From the IMG/VR virus record IMGVR_UViG_3300031801_001562: a DNA stretch of 64,000 nucleotides; one strand, written 5' to 3'. The DNA comes from a virus (Duplodnaviria; Caudoviricetes). The notes beneath the pieces were generated by a model. The model worked only from the letters and a program-made list of their open reading frames with translations, did no database searches and was not told where the DNA came from. Position 1 is the stretch's first letter. Each line of letters starts with the position of its first letter. Shown here one piece after another: positions 22,731 through 51,155 of the stretch. The translations under genes were made by a program, and so were the position numbers.

Positions 22731-22733
22731 ATG

Positions 22734-26029: not shown

Positions 26030-26218
26030 TTACGTGTCATGTCCTCTTCCATAGCATTCCAACTCACATTGTTCTAGTTCGTACATGAGTTCGTCGTTTG
26101 CGTTCACCAGGTATTCGATTCGTTTTGAATACTTGGCTTCTACTCTTTCTTCTATCTGTTTTTTCACCCCGATGTCATAAACAAGGCGAGCAAGATAATT
26201 TGATGGATTATTAATCAT
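26030..26218 (-). CDS. hypothetical protein
   Basis: short coiled-coil ORF. Confidence 0.45.
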   Translation of the reverse strand: MINNPSNYLARLVYDIGVKKQIEERVEAKYSKRIEYLVNANDELMYELEQCELECYGRGHDT

Positions 26219-26448: not shown

Positions 26449-26467
26449 TTAATATATTTAGGTGGTG

Positions 26468-26542
26468 TGGCTGCCTAGGCTGGGCTCGAACCAGCGACAT
26501 TCTGATTAACAGTCAGATGTTCTACCACTGAACTACTAGGCA
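26468..26542 (-). tRNA. trnN: tRNA-Asn(GUU), canonical
   Basis: TGCCTAG/CTAGGCA-G-CCA, TCTGA-CTGTTAA-TCAGA. Confidence 0.95.
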
Positions 26543-36366: not shown

Positions 36367-36591
36367 CTAGTCATTTGTTAAAGTTGGTTCGCCTCTGTCA
36401 TAATATTTCCAGCCTCTGTGACAAGGGCTCTGCTTTCTTTTAGCATATGCCTTATCTGTATAAGTTCCACCTTCTCCTTCACACTCTGCAAAAAATGGTG
36501 TCATTCCACTAGGCCAATTGTTGCTCTTTGTTGAACAAGATATTCCTATTGTTATTGCAAATACTATTATTGCTATTAGTTTCCATTTCAT
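36367..36591 (-). CDS. putative small lipoprotein
   Basis: MKWKLIAIIVFAITIGISC lipobox-like. Confidence 0.6.
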   Translation of the reverse strand: MKWKLIAIIVFAITIGISCSTKSNNWPSGMTPFFAECEGEGGTYTDKAYAKRKQSPCHRGWKYYDRGEPTLTND

Positions 36592-37007
36592 CCGTATATT
36601 CCCTCTTGATAAATTGGGCTCGACTCATGAGCTGGAGTCGAATGAGTTAATGTTTTAATCTCTACTGCCCTATCCAAGAGCATGTGCTCGATCTTAATGG
36701 GTTCCATCTCCACAAATTCCACTAGAACTTCATTTGAAGAAAATTCTGCACATGAATATACATCACATTGCACTAATGCCGGAGACGTTTCATCCCAGAT
36801 ATGTATTGCTATGTGACTTGTTTCTATCATTACTATTGCTGTTAAACCACGATTACCTTCCTTGGACACATATGCAGCATATGGGCCCTTGATAATGTTC
36901 ATATCTATTTTGTTTACTAAATTTCGAAGCCATTTTTTAATTTCTTTTTCACCCGTCATCGGGTTATTCACCTCAGCCCTAATAATCAAATGCTTATGTT
37001 CAGGCAT
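36588..37007 (-). CDS. speD: pyruvoyl-dependent decarboxylase, S-adenosylmethionine decarboxylase family
   Basis: HKHLII, GLTAIVMIETSHIAIHIWDE, CDVYSC. Confidence 0.85.
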   Translation of the reverse strand: MPEHKHLIIRAEVNNPMTGEKEIKKWLRNLVNKIDMNIIKGPYAAYVSKEGNRGLTAIVMIETSHIAIHIWDETSPALVQCDVYSCAEFSSNEVLVEFVEMEPIKIEHMLLDRAVEIKTLTHSTPAHESSPIYQEGIYG

Positions 37008-37072
37008 CCTCTCTCTCCTGTTATAAATGCTGAGGGCGTGTCGTCGGAACGACACTCCGAGCCCCCAACAAA

Positions 37073-37393
37073 TTATTTACATTTATATAATGTATAACTC
37101 CAAGTAAGTTCTTCTCCGGATTCAATGTCTCTTAAAGCACCGATCCACCAAGTTTTAGGGTCCATCAAAAGTTTGAAACAATTAGGATCTTCAGAATGAT
37201 TACCAAATCCTCCTAGAGGAGTTCTAATGAATCCGTTTTCAGAGCTTTCATTTGCATGATGGGTAACCCCAATTATTGTTTGCGCTACAATTTTGGCTGT
37301 TGCGAAAAGTCCTAGTCCGGAGACAGGAGATTCTTTAATTGTTATATAGTGGGGTAATGGTTTATACATATTATCTTTATTTATATTTCTCAA
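37073..37393 (-). CDS. minimal SET-domain protein (lysine methyltransferase family)
   Basis: SPVSGLGLFAT, FGNHSEDPN, ALRDIESGEELTWSY. Confidence 0.88.
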   Translation of the reverse strand: MRNINKDNMYKPLPHYITIKESPVSGLGLFATAKIVAQTIIGVTHHANESSENGFIRTPLGGFGNHSEDPNCFKLLMDPKTWWIGALRDIESGEELTWSYTLYKCK

Positions 37394-37860
37394 TTATAAA
37401 CTATATCTTCTTCCTCTTCCGATTTTTCAATTGGTTTTATATTTTTCCTTTGTATTTCCGCATGGTACTTCATATGTGCTTCGATAAGTTTATCTTCGTT
37501 AAAAGGCTTATCAGATTGTATCTGCTGAGCTATTTCAATTGCATCATCTGGAGAATCAAACCATTCACTTTTCCACGTTCCTTTAGCTACAATTGTTCTA
37601 GGGTTTGTATATACAATTCCAGATTCTTCAGGTGTCCACCAAAGATGTAACATTCCAATAAATCCTATTTCCGGTGGAGCTTCAAATCCTTGTAAAATAT
37701 GTCTTATGCCCATGCTTTGAAGAAATGGAAACTCTGTTGAATTATAAAACTTATAACGAAATTGAGTTTCCATAGCATGTCTCAAATCTTTTCGCATCTT
37801 CTCTCTATTGTTCATTTCGTCAGAGCTACTCATATATAAACTCCGATATTTCTTCTCCAT
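37390..37860 (-). CDS. hypothetical phage protein
   Basis: 156-aa ORF. Confidence 0.6.
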   Translation of the reverse strand: MEKKYRSLYMSSSDEMNNREKMRKDLRHAMETQFRYKFYNSTEFPFLQSMGIRHILQGFEAPPEIGFIGMLHLWWTPEESGIVYTNPRTIVAKGTWKSEWFDSPDDAIEIAQQIQSDKPFNEDKLIEAHMKYHAEIQRKNIKPIEKSEEEEDIVYN

Positions 37861-38620
37861 CTTTTATATGATATAGATCTTCATGAAACTCTTCTGAGAA
37901 TTTTGTATTATAAAAGAAATTAGAAATAATATTATACAAAACTATATGATTTGGATATGATAAATGATTCTTACGTTTACTTTCAATTTCACTGCGAATA
38001 ATTCCATCATGAAATTCATTACCGCATACTTCACGTAATTGGGTATCTACGATTTTAAAGTTTGAGTCATTAAGAGTCGACCAATCATACGGCACGTCTT
38101 TAAATACATTCTTTTCCGTTGTTAATACTAACGTTTTCATATTGAGATGTTTTAAAAACAAACATGTATAAAACGCCCACATTTTAATCTCAGGTTTAAA
38201 GGTATCATATGCGCCTATAACTTTTTCCATATTATTATAGACACTACCTCCAATTTCATAGCCCTCGCCAGCTTCACCCTTTCTACAAAAATCATCTATA
38301 TTTTCTCCAGATTTATATGCCCTATACATATCGTCTGCGGCTCCAGCATGTGTTGGTTTGTCAAGAAAAGGAAAAGGTATCCGGGTTCTATCTGTTAATA
38401 GAAATATAACTTTATCACCCCGTAAATAACCCTGCCTTGGTAATTTTTCTTGTAATATGCGCAATGACTCATATGTACTTCGACCGCCATTTGAATTAAC
38501 ATCAATGGCTTCATGTTTTTTTAATTGATTTTGCCAGCACAGATCGCCGTTATCAAAATCCCAGTTATAGTCTGGTTCTTCATTATAATCACAATAACTA
38601 TCACCGTATATTAAATACAT
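37826..38620 (-). CDS. SGNH/GDSL-like paralog
   Basis: YGDSY, RKNHLSYPNH. Confidence 0.6.
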   Translation of the reverse strand: MYLIYGDSYCDYNEEPDYNWDFDNGDLCWQNQLKKHEAIDVNSNGGRSTYESLRILQEKLPRQGYLRGDKVIFLLTDRTRIPFPFLDKPTHAGAADDMYRAYKSGENIDDFCRKGEAGEGYEIGGSVYNNMEKVIGAYDTFKPEIKMWAFYTCLFLKHLNMKTLVLTTEKNVFKDVPYDWSTLNDSNFKIVDTQLREVCGNEFHDGIIRSEIESKRKNHLSYPNHIVLYNIISNFFYNTKFSEEFHEDLYHIKDGEEISEFIYE

Positions 38621-39770
38621 ACTTATCCTGATCTTTATTAAATATTTCTAAAACCTCGGTGTCGCTTTTAGTTAAGCCTTCTTCGCGAAACATATCAACC
38701 ATATCTATGTGTTGTAATTTGTCTAAAGCCTTATAATTATATTCCCTCTTCTCAGAAAGATTCTTACACTTATCTATTAATTCTGACGTAGGTATTTTTA
38801 AGATTTCTTTTATTTGAGTTATAACTGAATTCAATCTTTCCTTGTAAGGTTTTTCATCGAATGAATAGTCAAATAATTCATCATATAATTTAAAACCCAT
38901 ATTCTTAAGAGCTTGATGGATATATCTTGGACCTAAAATAATGAATGGTTTCTTATATAACATAGGTTTATATGCTTTTTCTGTTAATACAGTACCAGCT
39001 GAGATACAATAAGCTTCCGTCACGAGATCAATACAACTTTCAATATATTCTAAGGGTACGCTTTCTTCCCGTGATTGCTGTTTCAGTTCCCATTCCTCTA
39101 ATAAATCTTCTCGAGTTCGTTCCTTTAAAGGTTTTTTATTTTTATCTGTCTCGTTTAACTCTGTTAATTCATTTAATAATTCTACTTCACCATCATCTTT
39201 AAAAAACGAATTAATTTGATCTTCATCTTCAAACGGATAGTATGAATATATAAACCTCTCCTCGCCCTGTAAAGCTCTCAGTAAATCTATTCTGTGAGGT
39301 TTTCGAGTACAATTTAATGATACTACATTATATTTTAAATCTAAATCTAATTCATAAGAACGATTCCTATCTCGCGTATTTCTTAAAAACTGTGGTATAC
39401 ATACTTCGGGATAGATTATAGGCTTTAAATTACTATCTACTTCGAATCGTTCTATGTTAGAATGTATATTAAAATCACCTGTAATATAATATACGTTTTT
39501 GCCTTTAAAATCTAAAGTTAAAAGATTATATAAAACATAATCAGTATATTGATATCTATCATCTGATGTTTTTAATGGACTAAACCTATCTGTCTCTCCA
39601 TCAAAAAATATCATATTATCATCTAATAACTCATCTAATAGTGCTTGATTTACTTGATGGTTATTACTTTGTCGTATTCCTAAAATAAAAGATGTTCTGT
39701 CTCCAGGAACATAGAATCTCATAGATAGAATCCAGATATTTGAAGAGTATATTTGTCTTTCAATCCACAA
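38601..39770 (-). CDS. putative glycosyltransferase (GT10-like C-terminus), paralog 1
   Basis: IDLVTE..LTEKAYKPMLYKKPFIILG..GFKLYDELFDYSFD. Confidence 0.5.
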   Translation of the reverse strand: MWIERQIYSSNIWILSMRFYVPGDRTSFILGIRQSNNHQVNQALLDELLDDNMIFFDGETDRFSPLKTSDDRYQYTDYVLYNLLTLDFKGKNVYYITGDFNIHSNIERFEVDSNLKPIIYPEVCIPQFLRNTRDRNRSYELDLDLKYNVVSLNCTRKPHRIDLLRALQGEERFIYSYYPFEDEDQINSFFKDDGEVELLNELTELNETDKNKKPLKERTREDLLEEWELKQQSREESVPLEYIESCIDLVTEAYCISAGTVLTEKAYKPMLYKKPFIILGPRYIHQALKNMGFKLYDELFDYSFDEKPYKERLNSVITQIKEILKIPTSELIDKCKNLSEKREYNYKALDKLQHIDMVDMFREEGLTKSDTEVLEIFNKDQDKYVFNIR

Positions 39771-40255
39771 TTACCACTTAAATGTAAATGGCTTGGATCC
39801 CATAGATATCCTTCAGCCGCACTCCAATGGGTGCTTGATTGCCAATCATGATTTTCATCTTGATAATGCATCAGGTGTCCTGGTTCCCAATCTTGCAAAT
39901 ATATATTTGCTCTTACTTTGGGTCTAGTATCATTTGGATATTCATTTTTAAATTTAAAAAATGTATCTCTATGTAGAGTAACAGTATTACCTGGTGGCTG
40001 AAGTATTGTGCTAACTGTAATTACCTCCATCTTTAATTGTTCACCCAATACTTTATAATCTACATCTCCATCATTAAACCATAATTGTTGTATTCTTGTA
40101 TTATCTTCGGTATAGGTTTCAGGAAAACCTCCTGCTATTTCATGTAAATCTTTTTGTTCTGCAGTTTGATAGCTGATACAACTACCACGATGTTGGTTAT
40201 AATCTGCATCTAAAAATACACTCAAATCATAATCTAATTTAATATCTTCAATCAT
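39719..40255 (-). CDS. 2OG-Fe(II) oxygenase
   Basis: PPGNTVTLHRD, HLSGNCG..KYTLQISG. Confidence 0.7.
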   Translation of the reverse strand: MIEDIKLDYDLSVFLDADYNQHRGSCISYQTAEQKDLHEIAGGFPETYTEDNTRIQQLWFNDGDVDYKVLGEQLKMEVITVSTILQPPGNTVTLHRDTFFKFKNEYPNDTRPKVRANIYLQDWEPGHLMHYQDENHDWQSSTHWSAAEGYLWDPSHLHLSGNCGLKDKYTLQISGFYL

Positions 40256-41517
40256 GTTATACCTTTCTCTTTATCTATTTGCTTTGTGATCTTAAACACA
40301 TCGGTATATTCTCTACACTCTAATAATTGTTTTTTATTATAATATATTTTGTCCTGAATATCTAGTATTTTTTTATCAAATTCACTTTTATCCATATTTA
40401 AAATGTCTTTCATTTGAGTCATGATTGCTTCATGCCTGTATCTAAATGATTCTATTTCATCAAAACTGTAATCAAATAATTCATCATATAATTTAAACCC
40501 TAATTGTTCAAATATCTTATACCATCCAGTGCACCCAACAACGAGAAATGGCTTACAATGAACCAATGCTTTACATGTCTTATCACTCAAACCAAATGCT
40601 CTTATATGATATGTTTCAATAATTAAATCTATCTCCGACTCTAACCACTCCTGCACTGGTAAGAAATCATGATATGCATCTGTGTCGTCTTCAAAACCTT
40701 GTGTAAAAGGCGTTTTAAAATGGATTCGTTTAGTTTGATCAAACCTTTCATTACTCATATTAAATCCACATGATAGATCAACATACTTTGTCTCATCACT
40801 TCTATTATTAAATTCTATAGCGTCTCCATTCTTTACCCACTTCCAAGAGCTCTTAGGATGCATTCTTTCTACGAATGATGTAAAGAACTCATCAGTTTCG
40901 GAGCCGTCTCTTCCTATGCTATTAACTTCTGTGCAGTTGAATGAATATATGAATCCAGGTATACCTGCTAATTCTCTAAGTGTTAATACTCTAGATATCT
41001 TCGGTTGATTAACCATGCTAATCACCCGATATTTTACAGGGATACCCATATCTTCTACAGGTTGATACAACTCATAAAATTTTCGTAATCTGGAGGCACA
41101 GATATCTCTAGCACTTGATGGTACTAGAGGATACATAGTAATTCTCATTTTAGGCTTAACTAATTCACACCAATCATTATAGATATGTTCCGCATTTGCA
41201 TCGCCATTAAGATACCATATTTTATTATCGGGATGAGAATAATTATGAATTATCTCTAATACATTATCATACTGATCACCTAATAACGGATGGTATCCTC
41301 CTGATTCATTAGCATTCCATATCATTATATTTTTATCTGTCTTCTCCTTTAACCTTTCAAGAGAATAATTCCAATGATCAAATCCAGGCGGCTTTGGGAC
41401 GTCCGGTGGTGTTAAAAATTCTTCTTTTGATTCGTATGCGCGGCCGTGACTAATGTATAGCCAATTCCCTGATTCGTTTTGCATTGTACTCCAATTTAGG
41501 TTGTAATCTCTTTTCAA
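40252..41517 (-). CDS. putative glycosyltransferase (GT10-like), paralog 2
   Basis: IDLIIET..SDKTCKALVHCKPFLVVG..GFKLYDELFDYSFD. Confidence 0.5.
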   Translation of the reverse strand: MKRDYNLNWSTMQNESGNWLYISHGRAYESKEEFLTPPDVPKPPGFDHWNYSLERLKEKTDKNIMIWNANESGGYHPLLGDQYDNVLEIIHNYSHPDNKIWYLNGDANAEHIYNDWCELVKPKMRITMYPLVPSSARDICASRLRKFYELYQPVEDMGIPVKYRVISMVNQPKISRVLTLRELAGIPGFIYSFNCTEVNSIGRDGSETDEFFTSFVERMHPKSSWKWVKNGDAIEFNNRSDETKYVDLSCGFNMSNERFDQTKRIHFKTPFTQGFEDDTDAYHDFLPVQEWLESEIDLIIETYHIRAFGLSDKTCKALVHCKPFLVVGCTGWYKIFEQLGFKLYDELFDYSFDEIESFRYRHEAIMTQMKDILNMDKSEFDKKILDIQDKIYYNKKQLLECREYTDVFKITKQIDKEKGIT

Positions 41518-42523
41518 TTTTTTTTATTTCTTCTTTATCCATATCTAATATCTTATCACATTGTCTCATTATATTTTTCCATCTATCTTCAAATAAGGGG
41601 TTAGAATCAAAACTGTAATCAAATAATTCATCATATAATTTAAATCCCATTCTTTCAAACTCTCTATACCAATTAGGTCCTCCTATAGTTAAGAATATCT
41701 TTTTCCAGTATAGCGGCTTGCATGATTTATCTGATAGGTAATTTGCTACACATACTTTATTTTCTTGAACTAAATCTATATACGATTGCCACCATTCTTT
41801 AGGAGGAAATATGTCGTGTTGACATGAAGTGCCTATTGCTTCTCGAGGACATTCTTCAGTTAATAATACTCTCTCTCGTGCATTAAAATTTCTAAAACTC
41901 AAATCACATGGCGCCGGATAATCCGCAGGATATATCATATCTAATGTTTCAATACTATTGCCGTCGTGCCAGTCCCATTTCTTACCTAACCAGGCTTCCG
42001 TAGTATTTTTCCAATTCTCTCCAATCGCTTCTTCATCGTTTAATAAATGAGTGGGGGTGACTCTGTAAGAATACTTAAACCAAGAATTACCTGTTAAACG
42101 TCCTAGAGTAAGTAATCGAAATATTCTGGGATTATTAACTAATGTAACAATCTTATAGAGTCGTTTATGGGTAGGTGCTTGATACTCACTCCACAAGGAA
42201 TTCATCGTATTCACATACTTTGATATCATAAACCTCCAATTTGGGTTTACTTTTATCTTAAATTCCGGTTTAACTATTTGACACCATCTATCATAATTTT
42301 GTTGTAATAAACTATCGTGATTGGAAAACGTCACATTATTGTCAGGATGTGCAAAATCATGAATAACCTGTAATAATTTGTCGTCTTCTCGCCCATGCAA
42401 CGGATAATAGCCCTGTGCTTCCCACTCGTCTTTAATAACTATAGGTTCATCAATTGGATTAGATATAATTTCTAATTCTGGATACTCTGTTTTTCCTATA
42501 GTGGACTCTACTTTTATAATCAT
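41450..42523 (-). CDS. putative glycosyltransferase (GT10-like), paralog 3
   Basis: IDLVQE..SDKSCKPLYWKKIFLTIG..GFKLYDELFDYSFD. Confidence 0.5.
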   Translation of the reverse strand: MIIKVESTIGKTEYPELEIISNPIDEPIVIKDEWEAQGYYPLHGREDDKLLQVIHDFAHPDNNVTFSNHDSLLQQNYDRWCQIVKPEFKIKVNPNWRFMISKYVNTMNSLWSEYQAPTHKRLYKIVTLVNNPRIFRLLTLGRLTGNSWFKYSYRVTPTHLLNDEEAIGENWKNTTEAWLGKKWDWHDGNSIETLDMIYPADYPAPCDLSFRNFNARERVLLTEECPREAIGTSCQHDIFPPKEWWQSYIDLVQENKVCVANYLSDKSCKPLYWKKIFLTIGGPNWYREFERMGFKLYDELFDYSFDSNPLFEDRWKNIMRQCDKILDMDKEEIKKIEKRLQPKLEYNAKRIRELAIH

Positions 42524-43197
42524 AATCCTTTTTCATAATCAATGATATAGCTTTTTATGCTAGGCCTCACATATCGATGATTTATAAATGTTTTCTTTAT
42601 TATCTCTTTATTAATTTTGTTTTCATCGTTGACAACAAATTGTATAATTGGAAACTCTGGAAAGGTATCAGCCATAAAAGATTCAGGAATCTTTATTTGT
42701 AAATCAGCAGAAGTAGTTTCAGGAACTCTGGGAGGATAAACGGAAATCACTTCTAAAATTATTCTATCTATTAAGAGATCTTTTACATTATTTAAAAACT
42801 CTTTAAATTCGTGATATTCATCAGACTCAAATAGATGATAAAAGTCTCCATTATTTACATGTATAGTTCTATATTCTCTGTATATATTCCATTCTATAGA
42901 TGTATTAGATCTATCAAAATCAACTGTTAGACATTTTTTTAATATATTAACATAATCATGATTCCTAAAACATCCTTCAAATAGCTTTACATCTACAAAA
43001 CGAGTTTGTTCATAATCAATTTCATCAATATTTACTGAGGGTGTTATACTATCATCGTCATAATCTGAACATGAACGATATAATTCTCTGCCAAATACTA
43101 AATTATCTAGATGCAGCATATTTTGTCTATACAAAAAACCTCTCTGTTCTCCTACCCCACCACATACATTCACGAGCCCACTTTTCCAAATTACCAT
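42520..43197 (-). CDS. hypothetical protein
   Basis: coupled ORF within the tailoring cluster. Confidence 0.55.
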   Translation of the reverse strand: MVIWKSGLVNVCGGVGEQRGFLYRQNMLHLDNLVFGRELYRSCSDYDDDSITPSVNIDEIDYEQTRFVDVKLFEGCFRNHDYVNILKKCLTVDFDRSNTSIEWNIYREYRTIHVNNGDFYHLFESDEYHEFKEFLNNVKDLLIDRIILEVISVYPPRVPETTSADLQIKIPESFMADTFPEFPIIQFVVNDENKINKEIIKKTFINHRYVRPSIKSYIIDYEKGL

Positions 43198-44935: not shown

Positions 44936-45971
44936 TTTTACCTTCTCTATGTAAGTCCAATGTCACACAATGAAATCCACCCCCTAATGTTTTAGCATGT
45001 CTTAGGCGCATGGGGATTGAATCAATATTATATTTTTTTAATTCTTTTATTAGTGGCGTTTGACTTTCTTCTACAATAACTACTTTTTCATTAATACTTA
45101 AAATATTTAGTCCTATTGCGGGTGATGCAATAGCAATGCTAGCGTCAGATGAACCACTGCTGCTTCTAATACCCTGATCTACTATATCTGTAAAGAATAT
45201 CTTATCCCATTTCTTAAATATTTCAGGATAATTATCTTCACTACATCTATGTCCGTTTAATAATACGAGACCTGGTCTTAACGGTATTACTGTGCTGTCA
45301 AAATGTGCTCCTGAATACTGATATGCTAGATGTACATTATATTCTGGAAACATTGATTGAAGCCATTTGCCTCCTTTTTCATTACCGCTATTACTCACCT
45401 GATATAATAAATCTTTGCCCATTCTTACAACATTTGCGGCGTCAAAAAGAATTTCTTTATTCATTAATGTTGGTTTCGATAAGTCTTCAAAATTAAACGA
45501 TGCATCTAATAATTGAGGTCTAGGAGCTGAAAACCATTTACCGGAACATTGATTCAAAATACGTCTATAGGCGTGCATCTCAAAGTACCGACTACGCATT
45601 ACATTGGGAGTTTCAATTAAACAATCATTTAGTACTAAAAATATATCACGCGGGCAATAATTATACCATCCTTGTGCTATCCATTCCGAAGACATTACTC
45701 TTCTTTTGTGATTTGTTTTATCTGGTCTATGAACTTTTATATCCAAACTTGTCAGAACCTTACAAAACAACCCTAAATCTTCATTGGTCTCTTCTATAAC
45801 TTGTTTATCATACGATCCAACTAGAGATTTAATTTTATTATCACTCAAATTCGCATACATGAAATTCTTCATGGATAAATCAAACGAAGGTATCCGAGCA
45901 CCGGTAGCATCTCCAACGATTACCTCTTTAAGAGGGTCCCATCCGTTACAGGATTGTATAATAGTTTCCAA
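44916..45971 (-). CDS. amidinotransferase (glycine/inosamine-phosphate amidinotransferase family)
   Basis: NGWDPLKEVIVG, YCPRD, FDAAN, HFDST, GGGFHCVTLD (Asp/His/Cys triad). Confidence 0.92.
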   Translation of the reverse strand: METIIQSCNGWDPLKEVIVGDATGARIPSFDLSMKNFMYANLSDNKIKSLVGSYDKQVIEETNEDLGLFCKVLTSLDIKVHRPDKTNHKRRVMSSEWIAQGWYNYCPRDIFLVLNDCLIETPNVMRSRYFEMHAYRRILNQCSGKWFSAPRPQLLDASFNFEDLSKPTLMNKEILFDAANVVRMGKDLLYQVSNSGNEKGGKWLQSMFPEYNVHLAYQYSGAHFDSTVIPLRPGLVLLNGHRCSEDNYPEIFKKWDKIFFTDIVDQGIRSSSGSSDASIAIASPAIGLNILSINEKVVIVEESQTPLIKELKKYNIDSIPMRLRHAKTLGGGFHCVTLDLHREGKNEQYDF

Positions 45972-46647
45972 TTTTAAATAATTCTTTTTGTGTTTGCCAT
46001 TTGCCTCTCTTTCTTACTTTTACATCAGAAAGACTTTCATTATTATATTCACTCCAACCACATGCTTTGAAGTCCATAGAAACTCTAGTATTTTTAGATT
46101 TATTATGCACGTAGCCACCATGCAACACTTGATCAAACACAACCATTTCTCCATGTTTAGGTGTTTGCATTACATCATCTACAAATATGCCGTTATCCTC
46201 ATCCATATCTGTTAAAGGAATTATAAAATTAGTTTCAAACTCTGGGTGATGAAAAGGAAAATCCATTTCATAATGTATATTAGCTTCTCTATCGTTTATT
46301 AGAGTTGTATCTTCATAAAATTTCCAATCATATCCTGATGGGAATATTTTAATTGATGGTAATTGTTGTATTACCGTATTCTCACCAAACCAAGATTTCA
46401 CTACATCTTTTTGAAACTCCCACCACATAAATCTAAACGCATAGGACTCATGCAATAATACTCTATAGAGTTTTTCAATCAATCCATATTGTGTATCTTC
46501 TTCAGGTAAATGTACTCCGCCTGCAGTATTATAAGTCACTGGTTTAATGTCATGATTCAAATGTATATCTTCAAGTCGACCTAAGCAGTCTTCAAACCAT
46601 TTTCTAAAGTTATATTTCTCTATGTCATATTTGATTATCTCAATCAT
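45946..46647 (-). CDS. StrG-like protein (probable non-heme iron oxygenase fold)
   Basis: QQLPSIKI, HYEMDF..HHPEFETNFIIPLT, HGGYVHNKSKNTRVSMDF. Confidence 0.55.
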   Translation of the reverse strand: MIEIIKYDIEKYNFRKWFEDCLGRLEDIHLNHDIKPVTYNTAGGVHLPEEDTQYGLIEKLYRVLLHESYAFRFMWWEFQKDVVKSWFGENTVIQQLPSIKIFPSGYDWKFYEDTTLINDREANIHYEMDFPFHHPEFETNFIIPLTDMDEDNGIFVDDVMQTPKHGEMVVFDQVLHGGYVHNKSKNTRVSMDFKACGWSEYNNESLSDVKVRKRGKWQTQKELFKIGNYYTIL

Positions 46648-47428
46648 ATACAAACTCGTCTTTATTATATGTGCCTTTATACACATTCTTTAAAAATTTA
46701 GGAATTTCCTTACCGTCTACAAACCCAGCTATTTGTTTGTACATTACCTCATGATTGACATCTGTAAGGTGATTAACTCTAAAATGAAGATCATCGGATA
46801 TTTTATGAATTAACCTTTCTTCTTCTACATATTCATTCCAAACAACTCTCTCTAATCCTTCATCATGGACGTAAAAATATTCATCATTTAATGAATTTTT
46901 AATATAAGATTCTTCCATACTTAAATGGTATATGAATATTTTACATTTTTGTATTCTTGAAGCTGTATATAATAATGATTCATATTTCCAATTACCATAG
47001 ACAGTTTCATCGCGGAATGTATCTACAGCAAAGCGTGCCTTGTCTTTATTTATTTTTATCCATTTATCATATTCAGATTCTAATTCGATACCATCTCCTG
47101 CTTTGTCCGATGATTCTGAATCCGTAATATTTCTTACTATCCTACCATTCCATTGGTGTATTTCGCCGCCGGCTTCTTCAATGTTAAAATATATTCTAGG
47201 AGCTCCTGACACAACAAATACAATTAAATCCTCATGAGTATAACTATGAAGACTCTCATAAAATTTTTTAAATGAATACATCGGCCCTGAACCGGATTTA
47301 CCATAATTTACAGTTTCAGGCCACCTCTTTCTCAATAATCCATACCATGTAATTTCTTGCCACCTGGAGGGATCACTCCAACTAGGATCTGCAAAGCTAT
47401 CACCATATATTGTTACTCTTTCAATCAT
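46640..47428 (-). CDS. SGNH/GDSL-like paralog
   Basis: YGDSFADP, NYGKSGSGP, RVNHLTDVNH. Confidence 0.65.
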   Translation of the reverse strand: MIERVTIYGDSFADPSWSDPSRWQEITWYGLLRKRWPETVNYGKSGSGPMYSFKKFYESLHSYTHEDLIVFVVSGAPRIYFNIEEAGGEIHQWNGRIVRNITDSESSDKAGDGIELESEYDKWIKINKDKARFAVDTFRDETVYGNWKYESLLYTASRIQKCKIFIYHLSMEESYIKNSLNDEYFYVHDEGLERVVWNEYVEEERLIHKISDDLHFRVNHLTDVNHEVMYKQIAGFVDGKEIPKFLKNVYKGTYNKDEFVYD

Positions 47429-48191
47429 ATATAAATCTGTCTGTTGGTTGATCTGGTTCTTCTAACAGATTATAATTAAATTCTGGTATCGTTCGAATAC
47501 CTTGAACAAAATTATTAATAATATTATACATCACTTTATGATTCTCTTCAGACAAATGATTATTTCTTTTATTGTCTTCATAAAAAGGTTCGCCTGGATT
47601 TTTATATTCATTTCTAGATATATCTTGTAAAGCCATAGGATTTATATAAAATAATCCATCATTAAGGCTATCTTTTATATACGAATCATCATAGTTTAAA
47701 AAGAATATACAAATTTTACATTTATGTATTCTGGATATTGTATAGAGAAATGATTCATTCTTTTTATTACTGTTTATTACTTCTCTTTCAAATGTCTTCA
47801 TCGTATAAGACATATGATCTTTATGAGATTGATGAAAAGATGGATCAAAGACATCATTGCATTTCATTTTTTGATTTTTAAAATCCCAATAAGATTCATG
47901 AACTAACATAATATCATTGTGTTCATAGGTTCTATACTCTTTGGGAAGATGATATTGAATTCTTTCTTCTCCAGATAAAATCCATATGACTAAATCTTCT
48001 TTATCAAATTGTTTATATCGTCTATAAAACTCTTTCATACTATAATGAGGCCCAGTACCAGCCTTAGCGAAGTTATTATACTCGAGTTGTTTAGCTAACG
48101 TTTCATACCAAGTCTCATGCACATATCTTTCTTTTCCCCAATTTGGATCAGCATAGCTATCACCAAATATCCATACTCTTTTAATCGTCAT
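47421..48191 (-). CDS. SGNH/GDSL-like paralog
   Basis: FGDSYADP, NFAKAGTGP, RNNHLSEENH. Confidence 0.65.
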   Translation of the reverse strand: MTIKRVWIFGDSYADPNWGKERYVHETWYETLAKQLEYNNFAKAGTGPHYSMKEFYRRYKQFDKEDLVIWILSGEERIQYHLPKEYRTYEHNDIMLVHESYWDFKNQKMKCNDVFDPSFHQSHKDHMSYTMKTFEREVINSNKKNESFLYTISRIHKCKICIFFLNYDDSYIKDSLNDGLFYINPMALQDISRNEYKNPGEPFYEDNKRNNHLSEENHKVMYNIINNFVQGIRTIPEFNYNLLEEPDQPTDRFIYD

Positions 48192-48816
48192 ACCAATCTA
48201 AATTACTAATATCTTTATAATGATTATTATCAGCTATATCTTTATCGTCGAAACCAAAATTAATGCGATCATTAAAATTAAATAATCCTAATTCTGCAGT
48301 TTCTGGAGTCATATACATATTATACCCAGATGCCATAAGCTTGTCATCTACATACTTTACATCTTTATTTCTGCCCATATAAATCATTGGTCTTGCCCAG
48401 TCAACAAAATCTTTATTATCTGTTAATATCATACCACCTCTAACAGTAGATATTGTTTTTCTATGATGGAAACTAAGACAATAATAAGTATCCGAAAAAT
48501 ACATGTTTTCGGTAAATCTACATGCAGAATCAACAATATCCAGTGATTCTATCGGATAATATCCCTTCCATTTGAAATCTATAAATTTTAATTTATAGCC
48601 GGCATGATGAAGTGATTGGGGTACACTTATATATGTTTGTTTAGGTAATTCTGCTATGTTATTATATGTTTCAAATGGCTTAATTTTTTTATTCCATAAT
48701 GCTGCTATAAAAATTGCATTAGTACAGCTGTCTGTAGCTACTGCATATTTGGAGCCGCCAAATTCTGCAATTGTTTCTTCAAATTCTTTTACTTTGTTCC
48801 ACATTAAATAACTCAC
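48181..48816 (-). CDS. compact DegT/DnrJ/EryC1/StrS PLP aminotransferase
   Basis: FEETIAEF..YAVATDSCTNA, VDSA, SFHHRK, GGMILTD, GYNMYM. Confidence 0.85.
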   Translation of the reverse strand: MSYLMWNKVKEFEETIAEFGGSKYAVATDSCTNAIFIAALWNKKIKPFETYNNIAELPKQTYISVPQSLHHAGYKLKFIDFKWKGYYPIESLDIVDSACRFTENMYFSDTYYCLSFHHRKTISTVRGGMILTDNKDFVDWARPMIYMGRNKDVKYVDDKLMASGYNMYMTPETAELGLFNFNDRINFGFDDKDIADNNHYKDISNLDWYDD

Positions 48817-49681
48817 AATAATGATTATAATTAAATACTATTTTATCTTTAACTGTTTTAATCTTCTTCGTAAATATATCGGGCTCCATTTGCATATAAG
48901 GTTCTATTGAATCGTTTAATCTGTTTAGGCGTCTCCAATTTGGATCAAACACTCCGCCGTCAAAACTATAATCAAATAATTCATCATATAACTCAAAACC
49001 AAGATCTTTTAACTTAGCATGGATTCCTTGACCACCCCAAACTAAGAAAGGTTTTTGAAATACTATAGGTTTCCATGTTTTTTCTGTAATGAAAAGAGAA
49101 TCAATGGTTGATTCTAATACCAAATCACAATTAGATTGATAATATTCAAGGGGCACTAATTCTTGAAATCCTCGATGATCGGATTCTATCTCCGTAAGCT
49201 TTATTATATCAAGATTAGAAAAACCATTTTTACCTTTATATTCTTCTAATGGAGTGTCCGGATGCCATTTATACTCTATTTCATTAACTTTAGAATAAGG
49301 ATTATTAGAATATATAAAATATTTATTAGTATATAATTTATCTAATAATTCATACTTGTGTTCTCTGGGGGCTGAGCATAAGCTAATAAAATTATATTTT
49401 ATAGGACCGTGAAGTACTGGGCGATTATAATATATGTCTCTACTGCGTTGGCTAATTTCTGTTAGGAAGGAGTAAGGATCATAAACTATTTTAAGTTTAT
49501 CATTCTTCAGATTACCATCAGCAGTGTAATACGTTACTTCATTAGGTAAGTCTTCTAAAAACTTGATAATATCTTCTCTGAACACCTCCCATACATCATA
49601 GACCTCTATAGGGCCTTCAACTTTTAATAAGGGTGTTAGATCTGGATCATTAACTGTTGGTGGGTTAATATAAAATTTCAT
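48779..49681 (-). CDS. putative glycosyltransferase (GT10-like), paralog 4
   Basis: CDLVLES..ITEKTWKPIVFQKPFLVWG..GFELYDELFDYSFD. Confidence 0.5.
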   Translation of the reverse strand: MKFYINPPTVNDPDLTPLLKVEGPIEVYDVWEVFREDIIKFLEDLPNEVTYYTADGNLKNDKLKIVYDPYSFLTEISQRSRDIYYNRPVLHGPIKYNFISLCSAPREHKYELLDKLYTNKYFIYSNNPYSKVNEIEYKWHPDTPLEEYKGKNGFSNLDIIKLTEIESDHRGFQELVPLEYYQSNCDLVLESTIDSLFITEKTWKPIVFQKPFLVWGGQGIHAKLKDLGFELYDELFDYSFDGGVFDPNWRRLNRLNDSIEPYMQMEPDIFTKKIKTVKDKIVFNYNHYCELFNVEQSKRI

Positions 49682-50532
49682 TCATATATAAAGTCTACTA
49701 ACTTATTTGGATCCGGATCATGTCGATTTTCACCGGCTTCTACATCACGAATAAAGTGTTCATGAAACTTGGTAGGCAAATCTGTTTTATTAAAATGATT
49801 TGTCATTATATTACTTAGCACTATATGATTACGATGTGTAAAATGATTAATCATACCAGCATGATGAATAATTTCATCTGACCATTCTTTTTTTGAATGA
49901 TCAAATAAGGGAAGTGAATAAAAATGAAATAAATCATCGTTAAGAATTGTAAAATCAAATAGCTCTTCCTTGTATACTCTACTAAAAGGATTGGGAGTCA
50001 TACCCCATACACGAAAAACTATCATTGGCCAATTGTTCAACTTAGATAGTGCATGAAGATATGTAACATTCTTTAAGTTTTGATGATCAAATTCATCCCA
50101 CATACTTTCATAAAGAGATGTTATACTAAATTCCTCTTCTGGTGTATAATAATATTCAGCAAGTTCCGGATTTCCTTCACGTTTAGCCATCCAATCTTGA
50201 TATGCTGAAGATGAGTCTATACCACCTTTCCGGTTTCTTTTATCACTAGGGTTTTTTGTACTATCTGTAGTTCCTTCTAGCCAAGTCCAAGGAATTCTAT
50301 ATGTACTAGATAATACAAATACGAACTTAGGATTTAATCCAAAACATTCTTGCTCATAATGCCGGTGAAATTTTGCTAATGTCTCAGCAGGTCCTTCACC
50401 ACACTTTCCATGATTATCATGTTCTTCATCTAGATTTTTAGAAAGCATTTGATACCAACGTTCATGGTCGTGCATTCCTAATTTTTCTGCTCGTTCATTT
50501 TCTACAAAACTATCACCATACAAATATATCAT
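49678..50532 (-). CDS. SGNH/GDSL-like paralog
   Basis: YGDSF, NHGKCGEGP, INHFTHRNH. Confidence 0.6.
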   Translation of the reverse strand: MIYLYGDSFVENERAEKLGMHDHERWYQMLSKNLDEEHDNHGKCGEGPAETLAKFHRHYEQECFGLNPKFVFVLSSTYRIPWTWLEGTTDSTKNPSDKRNRKGGIDSSSAYQDWMAKREGNPELAEYYYTPEEEFSITSLYESMWDEFDHQNLKNVTYLHALSKLNNWPMIVFRVWGMTPNPFSRVYKEELFDFTILNDDLFHFYSLPLFDHSKKEWSDEIIHHAGMINHFTHRNHIVLSNIMTNHFNKTDLPTKFHEHFIRDVEAGENRHDPDPNKLVDFIYE

Positions 50533-50534
50533 AA

Positions 50535-51155
50535 TTAACTATTTGAGGACATCTTCTTTTGAGGGTTATAAGCTTTTTCACCGTCATAATAATATAAAGA
50601 TTGATGAGGATCTTCAATAGGAGTGCTATTACTTTGATAATAAAATTTTCTTATAGCATATCTAGTTCCACTTGTTATTTCTTTAACGCCATGAGGTGCA
50701 ACTTCATTATTTTTAAATAATATAGTTGTATTATGACTGGGAACGTGTCTCCATACAACATTTTCTCTTTTCTCATCCCAGATTTGAAATTCACCTCCTT
50801 TACAATCTCCGAGATAAATTGTTAAACTTAATGCTCTATTTAATTTAACCCTATCATTCCAATTAAAATCTATATGAGGATCGAGTTTACATCCTCTAGT
50901 CATTTTAGAGATTCCTTCACCTACACCCATAGGATCAAATAACAATCCTTCCAGATTTGTTTCTTCTTCTAAATTTTTAATTGTTTTTTGTGAATGGAGT
51001 TGATTATATACTTCTCTGAGATCTACATGCTGTTCCCAATCATAATATTCATACATCAAACTATTATTTCTCTCAAAAATTTTCCAATCCTCAATACCTT
51101 CAAGAGTTTTAAGACAGCTCGTTGCCAATTTTTCATCAAGAAACCAAGACTTCAT
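50535..51155 (-). CDS. prolyl-4-hydroxylase-like 2OG-Fe(II) oxygenase
   Basis: LDPHIDFN, GGEF, PHGV, RYAIRKFYY. Confidence 0.85.
   Translation of the reverse strand: MKSWFLDEKLATSCLKTLEGIEDWKIFERNNSLMYEYYDWEQHVDLREVYNQLHSQKTIKNLEEETNLEGLLFDPMGVGEGISKMTRGCKLDPHIDFNWNDRVKLNRALSLTIYLGDCKGGEFQIWDEKRENVVWRHVPSHNTTILFKNNEVAPHGVKEITSGTRYAIRKFYYQSNSTPIEDPHQSLYYYDGEKAYNPQKKMSSNS

What the first reader, a model, noticed from the sequence alone, without database searches (positions are those of the whole stretch)
37826..51155. 13-kb translationally coupled tailoring cluster with a streptidine-pathway-like trio (amidinotransferase, StrG-like, StrS/DegT aminotransferase) and a B12 radical SAM
Seen: 15 abutting or overlapping genes in transcription order 2OG oxygenase, SGNH, GT10-like, DegT, SGNH, SGNH, StrG-like, amidinotransferase, B12-rSAM, unknown, GT10-like x2, 2OG oxygenase, GT10-like, SGNH. 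Known: aminotransferase followed by amidinotransferase installs guanidino groups on inosamine in streptomycin biosynthesis (StrS/StsC, StrB1); B12-rSAMs are typically C-methylases. Inference: the phage builds a guanidinylated/methylated amino-sugar or aminocyclitol and attaches it to virion glycans, host surface receptors or DNA. I know of no characterised phage pathway of this kind.
Basis: partly seen in the sequence, partly recalled or inferred. Interest (0 to 1): 0.8.

Follow-up and report, generated by a model that had tools for sequence, protein, structure and literature searches.

The report
Marine phage sugar-tailoring gene island
An uncultured marine T4-like phage carries a real, tightly packed block of 15-16 soluble enzyme genes that most likely builds and attaches an unusual modified sugar, possibly one bearing a guanidino group; islands of this kind have been noticed in phages before, but none has a known product.

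Summary
Tools confirm:
- a StrB1-type amidinotransferase (PDB 1bwd, 7.6e-84; catalytic Cys/His/Asp kept);
- a cobalamin radical-SAM enzyme of the TokK/CysS type;
- a P4H-like 2OG oxygenase;
- a conserved 'mini' DegT of about 210 aa that keeps the PLP lysine.

Two four-member paralog families have no Pfam model. By predicted fold they are GT-B glycosyltransferases (GT10 ranks first, but only weakly) and SGNH hydrolases.

The streptidine or aminocyclitol reading is not supported. No inositol, kinase or phosphatase genes were found. 'StrG-like' could not be verified. Bacterial homologs of the amidinotransferase sit in SbnA/SbnB plus NRPS-like operons, so the acceptor cannot be read from homology.

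In 65 IMG/VR loci the amidinotransferase travels with this GT-B family (57 of 65 loci). Common companions are B12 or twitch radical-SAM enzymes, the mini-DegT, a small cupin oxygenase and UDP-sugar enzymes.

The island sits at a fixed locus with variable content. It resembles the glycosyltransferase-rich hypervariable islands of pelagi- and cyanomyophages. Related modules were annotated but not explained in Synechococcus phage S-SCSM2R (2025) and Campylobacter phage CP220 (2010). This scan has already found similar islands in other genomes.

Best reading: a cytoplasmic pathway that builds and attaches a modified sugar. Its target is unknown.

The parts
50535..51155 (-). g1: 2OG-Fe(II) oxygenase, prolyl-4-hydroxylase-like (206 aa)
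   Evidence: Pfam 2OG-FeII_Oxy_3 at 3.3e-16. PHROG 61 at 2.6e-10. Less conserved than the rest of the block: 84% DNA identity to G001 against 96%.
49678..50532 (-). g2: SGNH-like paralog (284 aa)
   Evidence: Paralog of g5, g6 and g15. Carries the family motifs GDS, G, ND and NH..NH. The family folds as SGNH.
48779..49681 (-). g3: GT-B-fold glycosyltransferase-like paralog with the GF[KE]LYDELFDYSFD motif (300 aa)
   Evidence: AlphaFold model, pLDDT 72.6. VIA-align top hits are FUT11 (Z 8.7) and FUT13 (Z 8.6), followed by many other GT-B enzymes. No Pfam match.
48181..48816 (-). g4: minimised DegT/DnrJ/EryC1/StrS-type PLP enzyme (207-211 aa)
   Evidence: Pfam PF01041 at 1.3e-17. The Asp and the SFxxxK lysine are conserved in 17 distinct phage homologs. 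About 42 internal residues and most of the C-terminal domain are missing. hhalign against full-length DegT gives 95.6% probability.
47421..48191 (-). g5: SGNH-like paralog (256 aa)
   Evidence: AlphaFold model, pLDDT 77.9. AFDB best hit is an SGNH/GDSL protein at 1.9e-12, and all PDB hits are SGNH/GDSL, including PatB and rhamnogalacturonan acetylesterase.
46640..47428 (-). g6: SGNH-like paralog (262 aa)
   Evidence: 36% identical to g5. Shares the family alignment.
45946..46647 (-). g7: 2OG/Fe(II) oxygenase-like, PhyH-like lead (233 aa from the ATG at 46647)
   Evidence: Homologs are 233-235 aa. The family has 848 representatives and a conserved HxD/E...H...RxS motif. Atlas features point to PhyH-like (score 0.95). 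Weak matches to TIGR04324 (6e-4) and AndA (0.15).
44916..45971 (-). g8: L-arginine-dependent amidinotransferase, StrB1 type (351 aa)
   Evidence: PDB 1bwd at 7.6e-84 over the full length, HsvA 5e-54, SxtG 2e-49, AGAT 4e-46. D109, D177, H223, D225 and C335 are invariant in 16 viral homologs.
43127..44935 (-). g9: cobalamin-dependent radical SAM enzyme, class-B methylase type (602 aa)
   Evidence: Pfam Radical_SAM at 2.3e-15 and B12-binding at 4e-4. PDB TokK at 7.5e-57 and CysS at 3e-42. NCBIfam KedN5 family at 3e-67. The CxxxCxxC motif is read in the translation.
42520..43134 (-). g10: unknown protein (about 199-204 aa), lineage-specific
   Evidence: No Pfam, PHROG or NCBIfam match. The Atlas gave nothing useful. 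Found only in the nearest relative.
41450..42523 (-). g11: GT-B-like paralog (357 aa)
   Evidence: 34% identical to g12. Shares the invariant motif.
40252..41517 (-). g12: GT-B-like paralog (410-421 aa)
39719..40255 (-). g13: small cupin, Asp/Asn-hydroxylase-like 2OG oxygenase lead (178 aa)
   Evidence: Atlas features score 0.97-0.99 to viral clusters, some carrying PF05118. The family occurs in 31 of 65 amidinotransferase loci. In S-SCSM2R it lies directly upstream of the amidinotransferase (profile 9.8e-26).
38601..39722 (-). g14: GT-B-like paralog (373-389 aa)
   Evidence: A start at 39722 gives a 4-nt overlap with g13.
37826..38620 (-). g15: SGNH-like paralog (264 aa)
37390..37833 (-). g16: small protein that travels with the island (weak GT-A-like hit)
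   Evidence: Pfam Glyco_tranf_2_5 at 6e-4, below the cutoff. Conserved at the 3' end of the island in L006-L009 at 48-83% identity.

Best explanation
The block is a hypervariable glycan-tailoring island of an uncultured marine T4-like myovirus. It is of the same kind as the glycosyltransferase- and radical-SAM-rich islands of pelagi- and cyanomyophages.

All of its proteins are soluble. Working in the infected cell's cytoplasm, they most likely take a host nucleotide sugar or a growing glycan through these steps:
1. The 2OG/Fe oxygenases g1, g7 and g13 oxidise or hydroxylate it.
2. The minimised DegT-type PLP enzyme g4 installs an amine.
3. The StrB1-type amidinotransferase g8 converts that amine to a guanidino group, using arginine as donor through a covalent Cys335 amidino intermediate.
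4. The cobalamin radical-SAM enzyme g9 methylates an unactivated carbon, possibly more than once, as TokK and CysS do.
5. The four GT-B paralogs g3, g11, g12 and g14 transfer sugars.
6. The four SGNH paralogs g2, g5, g6 and g15 add or remove O-acyl groups.

The product is attached to a macromolecule. I favour the phage's own virion proteins over the host envelope glycan.

Shown here: the enzyme families, their catalytic residues, the tight gene packing, and the recurrent linkage of the core genes across phages. Inferred: the order of steps, the sugar nature of the substrate, the guanidino product and the target.
For: Enzyme identities.

Linkage. In 65 IMG/VR loci whose amidinotransferase is 41-94% identical, genes on the same strand within 9 kb include:
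- this GT-B family in 57 of 65 loci (132 copies);
- the g13-like cupin in 31;
- the B12-rSAM in 30;
- the mini-DegT in 26;
- twitch rSAM (NF033640) in 25;
- UDP-glucose/GDP-mannose dehydrogenase in 23;
- also GDSL, NTP transferase, full-length DegT, GT7, DUF5672 and carbamoyltransferase.

The nucleotide-sugar enzymes in relatives point to a sugar substrate. TIGR04324, the only family model that touches g7, is a 'sporadic carbohydrate cluster' oxygenase.

No transmembrane segment is predicted in any island protein, which fits cytoplasmic chemistry.

The island lies at a fixed locus, GT25-orf-HtrA-(AAA+)-[island]-orf-SpeD, in relatives L006-L009. A constant core (g1, g3, g4, g7, g8, g9, g16) is kept while the GT-B and SGNH copy numbers vary.

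Tandem GT-B fusions of about 680 aa exist in metagenomes, as expected for transferases that act in series.

The same window holds further sugar-tailoring genes: a carbamoyltransferase, a hexapeptide acyltransferase and a GT25.

Pelagimyophage islands with glycosyltransferases, UDP-glucose dehydrogenase and rSAM cassettes are described in PMC7029224.
Against: - No enzyme that makes a keto-sugar (4,6-dehydratase or 3-dehydrogenase) and no nucleotidyltransferase was found in this window, so the entry point of the pathway is not visible.
- The mini-DegT lacks about 42 core residues and most of its small domain, and may not be an aminotransferase.
- GT-B assignment rests on one model of moderate confidence. 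The matches have Z about 8, and the tool's own note says such scores can reflect only a common arrangement. The GT10 Pfam model does not match.
- The closest cellular homologs of the amidinotransferase appear to act in an amino-acid/NRPS context, so a non-sugar amine is a real possibility.
- No tail-fibre or capsid gene was recognised beside the island in this window.
- No guanidino-sugar glycan is known to me.
Confidence: 0.55

Rival explanations
1. Host-surface remodelling. The island modifies host lipopolysaccharide, O-antigen or capsule intermediates at the cytoplasmic face, giving serotype conversion that blocks superinfection. The virion is not the target. This differs from the best explanation only in the target.
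For: This is the published interpretation of glycosyltransferase-rich islands in pelagimyophages and of the 'LPS genes' of cyanomyophages (PMC7029224, read). A GT25 'LPS' glycosyltransferase lies nearby. SGNH enzymes commonly O-acetylate or de-acetylate surface polysaccharides; PatB and AlgX/AlgJ are among the fold matches.
Against: The window has no flippase, polymerase, ligase or lipid-carrier priming transferase, and no membrane protein in the island. The host is unknown.
Confidence: 0.25
2. Small-molecule pathway. The genes make an aminocyclitol or aminoglycoside-like guanidino compound, or another secondary metabolite. This is the streptidine-like reading of the first reader, and the 'antibiotic synthesis genes' reading of the S-SCSM2R paper.
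For: g8 is most similar to StrB1 among solved structures. B12-rSAM methylases, DegT enzymes, carbamoyltransferases and glycosyltransferases all occur in aminoglycoside pathways (established knowledge). PMC12801897 labels the S-SCSM2R homologs as antibiotic genes.
Against: No inositol-phosphate synthase, inosose dehydrogenase, kinase, phosphatase, exporter or resistance gene was found. Eight of the 15 genes are transferase or esterase paralogs whose number varies between close relatives. That pattern is typical of glycan diversification, not of a fixed metabolite. Bacterial homologs of g8 show that this clade is not tied to inosamine.
Confidence: 0.08
3. DNA hypermodification. The GT-B enzymes glycosylate a modified base in phage DNA, and the other enzymes tailor the appended group.
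For: T4 beta- and alpha-glucosyltransferases are among the GT-B fold matches (Z 8.1 and 7.4). Radical SAM and PLP enzymes take part in known thymidine hypermodification (established knowledge).
Against: These fold matches are no better than dozens of other GT-B enzymes. No hydroxymethylase, base-exchange enzyme or nucleotide kinase is linked to the island in this lineage.
Confidence: 0.08
4. Direct protein or peptide side-chain chemistry without a sugar. Examples are lysine or ornithine to homoarginine or arginine-like residues by g8, hydroxylation by the P4H-like and AspH-like oxygenases, and C-methylation by g9, on a virion protein or a peptide.
For: g1 is P4H-like, and its best NCBIfam hit is a peptide-modifying oxygenase, YhhC (1.9e-8). 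g13 has Asp/Asn-hydroxylase-like features. Bacterial homologs of g8 are in amino-acid/NRPS-like operons. Class-B rSAM methylases also act on peptides (TIGR03975 and ApyD hits).
Against: No precursor peptide gene was recognised. The near-universal partner of g8 in phages is a GT-B family (57 of 65 loci). Nucleotide-sugar enzymes recur in related loci.
Confidence: 0.1

Closest known systems
Module ORF301-310 of Synechococcus phage S-SCSM2R (PQ898602; PMC12801897, 2025), called 'antibiotic synthesis genes' there
   Same: A co-directional block holds a short DegT-like protein (195 aa; 37.5% identical to g4, profile 4.7e-80). A small g13-like cupin lies directly upstream of the amidinotransferase (profile 9.8e-26). 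The amidinotransferase is 37.6% identical to g8. The block also has a radical SAM enzyme, 2OG oxygenases and several glycosyltransferases. Its function is unknown.
   Different: No B12-type rSAM, no member of the GT-B (GF[KE]LYDELFDYSFD) family, no SGNH-like paralogs and no g7 homolog. Its glycosyltransferases are annotated as GT2 and GT25.
Radical-SAM plus amidinotransferase cluster of Campylobacter phages CP220/CPt10 (Timms et al. 2010, PMC2853527)
   Same: The amidinotransferase is 30% identical to g8 over 94% of its length. It is embedded among radical SAM genes and followed by two nucleotide-sugar-transferase-fold genes. It is described as an exchangeable module of unknown function.
   Different: The rSAMs are not cobalamin-type. 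None of the other island families was detected. The host and phage lineage are unrelated.
Host recognition cluster and LPS-type hypervariable islands of pelagimyophages and cyanomyophages (Zaragoza-Solas et al. 2020, PMC7029224)
   Same: Hypervariable islands in marine T4-like myophages, rich in glycosyltransferases, with UDP-glucose dehydrogenase and radical SAM cassettes. Content varies between close relatives at a fixed genomic position. The window's GC content (31-34% in the island) and its distant similarity to cyano- and pelagiphage proteins fit such phages.
   Different: That cluster is defined by tail-fibre genes between VrlC and gp14. No tail-fibre gene was recognised beside this island. 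The amidinotransferase, B12-rSAM, mini-DegT and the two Pfam-less families are not described in that paper.
StrB1, L-arginine:inosamine-phosphate amidinotransferase of streptomycin biosynthesis (PDB 1bwd)
   Same: End-to-end alignment (residues 4-351 against 3-348) at 7.6e-84, with the catalytic Cys, His and Asp residues conserved. The same chemistry is expected: amidino transfer from arginine through a Cys intermediate.
   Different: The rest of the streptidine pathway is absent. Equally similar bacterial homologs sit in SbnA/SbnB/NRPS-like operons, so the acceptor is probably different.
TokK / CysS / KedN5 class-B cobalamin radical SAM methyltransferases
   Same: Full-length similarity: TokK 7.5e-57 over residues 24-502, CysS 3e-42, KedN5 family 3e-67. 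An N-terminal B12-binding region precedes a CxxxCxxC rSAM core.
   Different: The score is far below the KedN5 family cutoff (227 against 700 bits). The gene is encoded by a phage next to sugar-type enzymes. No homolog exists in cultured phages apart from one weak hit.

Membership tests
Amidinotransferase (AGAT/StrB1 family, pentein fold) | Full-length sequence homology to solved amidinotransferases | tested here: met
   PDB phmmer: StrB1 7.6e-84, HsvA 5.3e-54, SxtG 2.4e-49, AGAT 3.9e-46, all near full length.
Amidinotransferase (AGAT/StrB1 family, pentein fold) | Catalytic Cys-His-Asp machinery and the two substrate-binding Asp residues | tested here: met
   The residues aligned to the StrB1 CPRD, FDAAN, HxDS and GGGFHC motifs are present. 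They are invariant in 16 viral homologs: D109, D177, H223, D225, C335. Which residues are catalytic comes from my memory of the StrB1 and AGAT literature.
Streptidine branch of streptomycin biosynthesis | Acceptor is scyllo-inosamine 4-phosphate | not testable with these tools
   Needs an enzyme assay. Homologs at 44-55% identity in bacteria are linked to SbnA-like, SbnB-like and NRPS-like genes in up to 65 of 80 loci, so homology does not fix the acceptor.
Streptidine branch of streptomycin biosynthesis | Accompanying inositol dehydrogenase, inosamine kinase and phosphatase genes | tested here: not met
   Pfam, PHROG and NCBIfam scans of the island proteins gave no such family. The unannotated proteins fold as GT-B or SGNH. 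g10 remains unknown.
Streptidine branch of streptomycin biosynthesis | StrG homolog | not testable with these tools
   No StrG sequence was available. A g7 profile found nothing in a Streptomyces locus that carries a StrB1-like gene. g7 is a 2OG/Fe oxygenase by motif, with PhyH-like leads only.
DegT/DnrJ/EryC1/StrS aminotransferases | Match to the family model, with the PLP lysine and the pyridine-binding aspartate | tested here: met
   PF01041 scores 64.6 bits against a cutoff of 19.8. The D-x-A and S-F-x-x-x-K motifs are conserved in the short family. hhalign to a full-length DegT gives 95.6% probability, 1.1e-8.
DegT/DnrJ/EryC1/StrS aminotransferases | Complete fold-type-I architecture (about 360-400 aa, large and small domains) | tested here: not met
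   The protein is 207-211 aa. About 42 residues of the large domain and most of the C-terminal domain are absent. The short form is conserved in 26 phage loci with a median length of 226 aa.
Class B cobalamin-dependent radical SAM methyltransferases | CxxxCxxC radical SAM core preceded by a B12-binding domain | tested here: met
   Radical_SAM 2.3e-15. B12-binding 4.3e-4, below the Pfam cutoff. TokK aligns over residues 24-502. The CPYMCTFC motif is read.
Class B cobalamin-dependent radical SAM methyltransferases | Membership of a named subfamily (KedN5, TokK or CysS) | tested here: inconclusive
   The KedN5 model scores 227 bits against a cutoff of 700.
GT10 fucosyltransferases | GT-B fold | tested here: met
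   The model of g3 (pLDDT 72.6, pTM 0.75) matches FUT11 (Z 8.7, rmsd 4.9, 194 aligned), FUT13 (Z 8.6) and many other GT-B enzymes at Z 7-8. Foldseek gives FUT13 a probability of 0.95.
GT10 fucosyltransferases | Match to the GT10 sequence model or its signature motif | tested here: inconclusive
   No Pfam family matched at E <= 0.01. The family keeps E190...T-E-K201 with the spacing I recall for the alpha-1,3-FucT motif. That recollection is from memory and was not tested.
SGNH/GDSL hydrolases | SGNH fold with block I (GDS), II (Gly), III (Asn) and V (His) | tested here: met
   All Foldseek matches are SGNH/GDSL, the best in AFDB at 1.9e-12. G-D-S, G45, N198-D199 and H230/H236 are invariant in the four paralogs, and invariant or nearly so (at least 90%) in the 31-member family alignment. 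The Asp of the usual DxxH is not conserved. No Pfam model matches.
Host recognition cluster of pelagi- and cyanomyophages | Hypervariable island at a fixed locus, rich in glycosyltransferases and radical SAM genes | tested here: met
   The flanks (GT25, HtrA-like, SpeD, the 660-aa ORF) are conserved in L006-L009 while the island content varies.
Host recognition cluster of pelagi- and cyanomyophages | Lies between VrlC and gp14 and contains the tail-fibre genes | tested here: inconclusive
   No tail-fibre, VrlC or gp14 gene was recognised in the window. The window's own genome is not held.

The most novel reading that the evidence does not exclude
Marine phages make a guanidino sugar: an amino sugar N-amidinated from arginine by a StrB1-type enzyme and C-methylated by a cobalamin radical-SAM enzyme. 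They attach it to their own virion proteins through a previously unrecognised GT-B family. This would be the first guanidinylated glycan of any virus, and a new way to tune adsorption or evade host recognition. It would also tie the phage to cobalamin-replete hosts.
Probability: 0.2. Interest if true: 0.8.

Novelty: new variant of a known kind. Interest (0 to 1): 0.55.

Why it matters
Large marine and freshwater phages devote tens of kilobases to soluble tailoring enzymes, and no product or target is known for any of them. This island is a compact and widely distributed example, present in seawater metagenomes from many studies. It has a clear, testable chemical core: a PLP enzyme, an arginine-dependent amidinotransferase and a cobalamin rSAM methylase. 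It also contains two abundant protein families that have no Pfam model.

A related core (mini-DegT, small cupin, amidinotransferase) exists in a cultured cyanophage, S-SCSM2R, so the question can be addressed experimentally now. If the product decorates virions or host surfaces, it bears on host range and superinfection in the ocean. The cobalamin requirement adds a link between phage fitness and B12 availability.

Tried and rejected
- **DNA search for cultured relatives.** megablast of the island against 50,697 phage records found no match. The window's own assembly is not held.
- **Sequence searches of the PDB.** The GT-B paralog profile, the SGNH profile and g7 (alone, with 14 homologs and with 49 homologs) gave nothing significant.
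- **Family scans.** Pfam on eight members of the GT-B family, including the 680-aa forms, gave nothing. NCBIfam on g11, g13, g15, g16 and four unknown partner families gave nothing useful.
- **g10.** The Atlas look-up gave only scores at noise level.
- **Complex prediction.** The adjacent pair g2 (SGNH) plus g3 (GT-B) gave no answer: score 0.00, below the mark, controls not run. This says nothing either way about binding.
- **f4 as a second PLP enzyme.** f4 is the 291-aa gene just upstream of the amidinotransferase in 29 loci, and it never co-occurs with the mini-DegT. hhalign shows no relation to DegT (probability 0.6-4.7%), and NCBIfam gave only a 0.039 transaminase hint. Rejected for lack of support.
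- **Gene conversion in the GT-B motif.** The 42-nt core is 81-98% identical between paralogs, but it is made of AT-rich preferred codons. I do not claim conversion.
- **Transcription signals.** The T4-type late promoter TATAAATA occurs 5 times in the window against about 13 expected, with none upstream of g1. Sigma-70 and terminator scans are at chance level.
- **Flanking ORFs.** tblastn of three large flanking ORFs against cultured phages gave no useful match, so the island could not be placed relative to tail genes.
- **Nucleotide-sugar genes in this window.** Searches for UGDH, NTP transferase and full-length DegT found none.

Full report
**Observation.**
The stretch 37826-51155 holds 15 ORFs, all on the minus strand. 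With the longest-ORF starts, 14 of 15 junctions overlap. With the most conservative start choice, every junction still has a start codon within -38 to +7 nt of the upstream stop, and several overlap by 4 or 8 nt. Sigma-70-like promoters and intrinsic terminators are no more frequent than in shuffles. This fits one transcription unit but does not prove it. An IMG/VR record (G001) carries the block at 96% DNA identity with all ORFs intact. Near-identical DNA is present in seawater or marine metagenomes of at least nine further studies. A 16th gene (37390-37833) travels with the block in relatives.

**What the genes are: the four with clear family matches.**
- g8 is an amidinotransferase. Its best solved relative is StrB1 (1bwd, 7.6e-84, end to end), well ahead of HsvA, SxtG and glycine amidinotransferase. 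D109, D177, H223, D225 and C335 are invariant in 16 viral homologs.
- g9 is a cobalamin-type radical SAM enzyme. Matches are TokK 7.5e-57 over residues 24-502, CysS 3e-42, and the KedN5 family at 3e-67, which is below that family's cutoff.
- g1 is a P4H-like 2OG oxygenase.
- g4 matches DegT/DnrJ/EryC1/StrS (1.3e-17) but is only about 210 aa. Alignment with 16 other distinct phage homologs and a full-length DegT shows what is kept and what is lost. The pyridine-binding Asp and the S-F-x-x-x-K lysine are conserved. About 42 residues of the large domain and most of the small domain are missing. hhalign to full-length DegT gives 95.6% probability. So g4 belongs to a conserved minimised form and is not a broken gene.

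**What the genes are: the two Pfam-less paralog families.**
Two families account for eight genes. Both occur almost only in marine metagenomes and viral contigs, without any source annotation.
- A model of g3 (pLDDT 72.6) has a GT-B fold. In a search independent of Foldseek, the two best solved matches are the GT10 fucosyltransferases FUT11 (Z 8.7) and FUT13 (Z 8.6). They are followed closely by many other GT-B enzymes. Foldseek agrees weakly. 'GT-B, perhaps GT10-like' is as far as the evidence goes.
- A model of g5 (pLDDT 77.9) matches only SGNH/GDSL proteins, the best in AFDB at 1.9e-12. The family keeps the GDS, Gly, Asn-Asp and His blocks.

**What the genes are: g7, g13 and g10.**
- g7 belongs to a large family with 848 representatives. 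It has a conserved HxD/E...H...RxS pattern typical of 2OG/Fe oxygenases. PhyH-like leads come from Atlas features (0.95), from TIGR04324 'sporadic carbohydrate cluster oxygenase' (6e-4) and from AndA (0.15).
- g13 has Asp/Asn-hydroxylase-like cupin features.
- g10 remains unknown and is confined to the nearest relative.
- None of the 16 proteins has a predicted membrane segment.

**Distribution and linkage.**
A scan of IMG/VR with g8 returned 65 loci at 41-94% identity. I clustered the same-strand neighbours within 9 kb. The families linked to the amidinotransferase are:
- the GT-B family in 57 of 65 loci (132 copies);
- the g13-like cupin in 31;
- the B12-rSAM in 30;
- an unknown 291-aa protein (f4) directly upstream in 29;
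- the mini-DegT in 26;
- twitch-type rSAM (NF033640) in 25, with up to five copies per locus;
- UDP-glucose/GDP-mannose dehydrogenase in 23;
- GDSL proteins in 22;
- g7 in 17 and the SGNH-like family in 14;
- also NTP transferase, full-length DegT, GT7, DUF5672 and carbamoyltransferase.

In the window's own lineage (L006-L009) the island lies between the same flanking genes: GT25, a small ORF, an HtrA-like protease and sometimes an AAA+ gene on one side, and a small ORF, SpeD and a 660-aa ORF on the other. Its content differs between relatives. g1, g3, g4, g7, g8, g9 and g16 are constant. The numbers of GT-B and SGNH genes change, and a twitch rSAM appears in some. So the core stays linked while the transferase and esterase paralogs turn over.

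**What StrB1 likeness does and does not show.**
A scan of one genome per prokaryote species found 153 relatives, of which the best 80 were kept, at 43-55% identity in many phyla. In up to 65 of these 80 loci the gene is followed by a protein of about 1,425 aa with adenylation, carrier and hexapeptide domains. In 39-42 loci it is preceded by a PALP enzyme and an ornithine-cyclodeaminase-family enzyme. By established knowledge that pair is the SbnA/SbnB type that makes L-2,3-diaminopropionate. These homologs therefore probably amidinate an amino acid. Only a handful of 'bacterial' contigs carry other island genes. One 27.5-kb 'Chloroflexota MAG' contig carries nearly all of them and is probably a phage contig. 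So the family and its chemistry are firm, but the acceptor cannot be read from homology. The streptidine analogy is not supported. No inositol, kinase or phosphatase genes were found. StrG likeness could not be tested.

**Most likely mechanism.**
The recurring partners are a GT-B family, nucleotide-sugar enzymes in relatives, an oxygenase family first defined in carbohydrate clusters, and SGNH proteins. Together they point to a sugar or glycan substrate processed in the cytoplasm. The proposed steps are:
1. oxidation or hydroxylation by the 2OG oxygenases;
2. amination by the mini-DegT;
3. amidination from arginine by g8;
4. C-methylation by g9;
5. glycosyl transfer by the four GT-B paralogs;
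6. O-acyl handling by the four SGNH paralogs.

Tandem GT-B fusions of about 680 aa in metagenomes fit transferases that act in series. The order of steps, the guanidino product and the target are all inferences. Weak points:
- no keto-sugar-forming enzyme or nucleotidyltransferase was found in this window;
- the truncated PLP enzyme may not be an aminotransferase;
- the fold scores for the GT-B assignment are middling;
- no tail-fibre gene was recognised nearby.

I put 0.55 on a glycan-tailoring island. Within that, I favour virion proteins slightly over host envelope as the target. The rivals are a small-molecule pathway (0.08), DNA hypermodification (0.08) and sugar-free protein or peptide modification (0.10).

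**Comparison with what is known.**
- Synechococcus phage S-SCSM2R has a block with a 195-aa DegT-like gene, a g13-like cupin directly upstream of an amidinotransferase, a radical SAM enzyme and glycosyltransferases. Its authors call three of these 'antibiotic synthesis genes' of unclear purpose (PMC12801897).
- Campylobacter phages CP220 and CPt10 carry an exchangeable cluster of radical SAM genes with an amidinotransferase (PMC2853527).
- Pelagimyophages have a hypervariable 'host recognition cluster' with glycosyltransferases, UDP-glucose dehydrogenase and rSAM cassettes. It is interpreted as O-chain modification (PMC7029224).
- Earlier notes of this scan describe similar rSAM and glycosyltransferase islands in other genomes. 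They gave me the lead to the pelagimyophage paper, which I read myself.

The present island is a variant of this kind. It uses a cobalamin rSAM, which has no counterpart in cultured phages, in place of the multiple twitch rSAMs. It is dominated by two Pfam-less families.

**Verdict.**
The specific streptidine-like interpretation is not supported, and the general idea of a modified amino-sugar pathway remains the best reading. The kind of island has been seen before, both in the literature and in this scan, but no member has a known product. I rate it a new variant of a known kind, with moderate interest.

Noticed in passing
window 37826-37840, 46640-46650, 47421-47431, 49678-49684: All four SGNH-like genes end in F-[IV]-Y-[DE]-stop. 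In each case the next gene's ATG is embedded in those last codons (TATATGA...). The conserved C-terminal tail is also present in almost every metagenomic family member. It may therefore be constrained partly by a translational-coupling junction and not only by protein function.
   Followed up: partly
window 50532-50535 (g1/g2 junction) and 51503-52960: This is a recombination breakpoint. Identity to G001 drops from 96% to 84% exactly at the g1/g2 junction. Contigs of two seawater runs follow the island up to 50532, and in one of them (X8) the contig then runs on into unlike sequence. The AAA+ gene upstream of g1 has no match in the nearest relative's locus.
   Followed up: partly
loci L071-L150 (bacterial genomes): StrB1-like amidinotransferases at 43-55% identity are widespread in Alphaproteobacteria, Halieaceae and other groups. 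They sit in a conserved operon: PALP (SbnA-like), ornithine-cyclodeaminase family (SbnB-like), amidinotransferase, and a protein of about 1,425 aa with adenylation, carrier and hexapeptide domains, often with a PPTase. This suggests a guanidino-diaminopropionate-derived product of unknown identity.
   Followed up: partly
L072 (PAAV01000010.1, 'Chloroflexota MAG', 27.5-kb contig): This contig carries homologs of 13 of the 16 island genes (all but g10, g13 and g16), including the B12-rSAM at 68% identity. It is probably a phage contig binned into a bacterial MAG.
   Followed up: no
metagenomic proteins P0087-P0121 (about 680 aa): These are tandem fusions of two complete GT-B modules of the GF[KE]LYDELFDYSFD family.
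   Followed up: partly
IMG/VR loci L006-L070: An unknown 291-aa family (f4) lies directly upstream of the amidinotransferase in 29 loci and never co-occurs with the mini-DegT (0 loci have both). Together with full-length DegT they cover 55 of 65 loci. hhalign shows no homology between f4 and DegT.
   Followed up: partly
window 6039-7466, 9105-9731, 22797-24146, 24143-25078, 30391-31317, 36588-37055, 53004-54140, 54716-55354: Further auxiliary and tailoring genes lie in the same window: an O-carbamoyltransferase (54% identical to one that lies near the amidinotransferase in other phages), a hexapeptide acyltransferase, a twitch-like radical SAM enzyme, a PRPP synthetase, a 2OG oxygenase, SpeD, an HtrA-like protease with a PDZ domain, and a GT25.
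   Followed up: partly
window 21764-26542: Four tRNA genes (Cys, Val, Tyr, Asn) lie on the minus strand.
   Followed up: no
whole window: The T4 late-promoter octamer TATAAATA occurs only 5 times, against about 13 expected from shuffles. One copy, at 37378-37385, lies just after g16.
   Followed up: no
window 43127-44935: A cobalamin-dependent enzyme in a phage implies a host that makes or imports (pseudo)cobalamin. By general knowledge SAR11 neither makes nor uses B12, so this would argue against a Pelagibacter host despite the pelagimyophage-like GC content and island style. This is an inference and was not tested.
   Followed up: no
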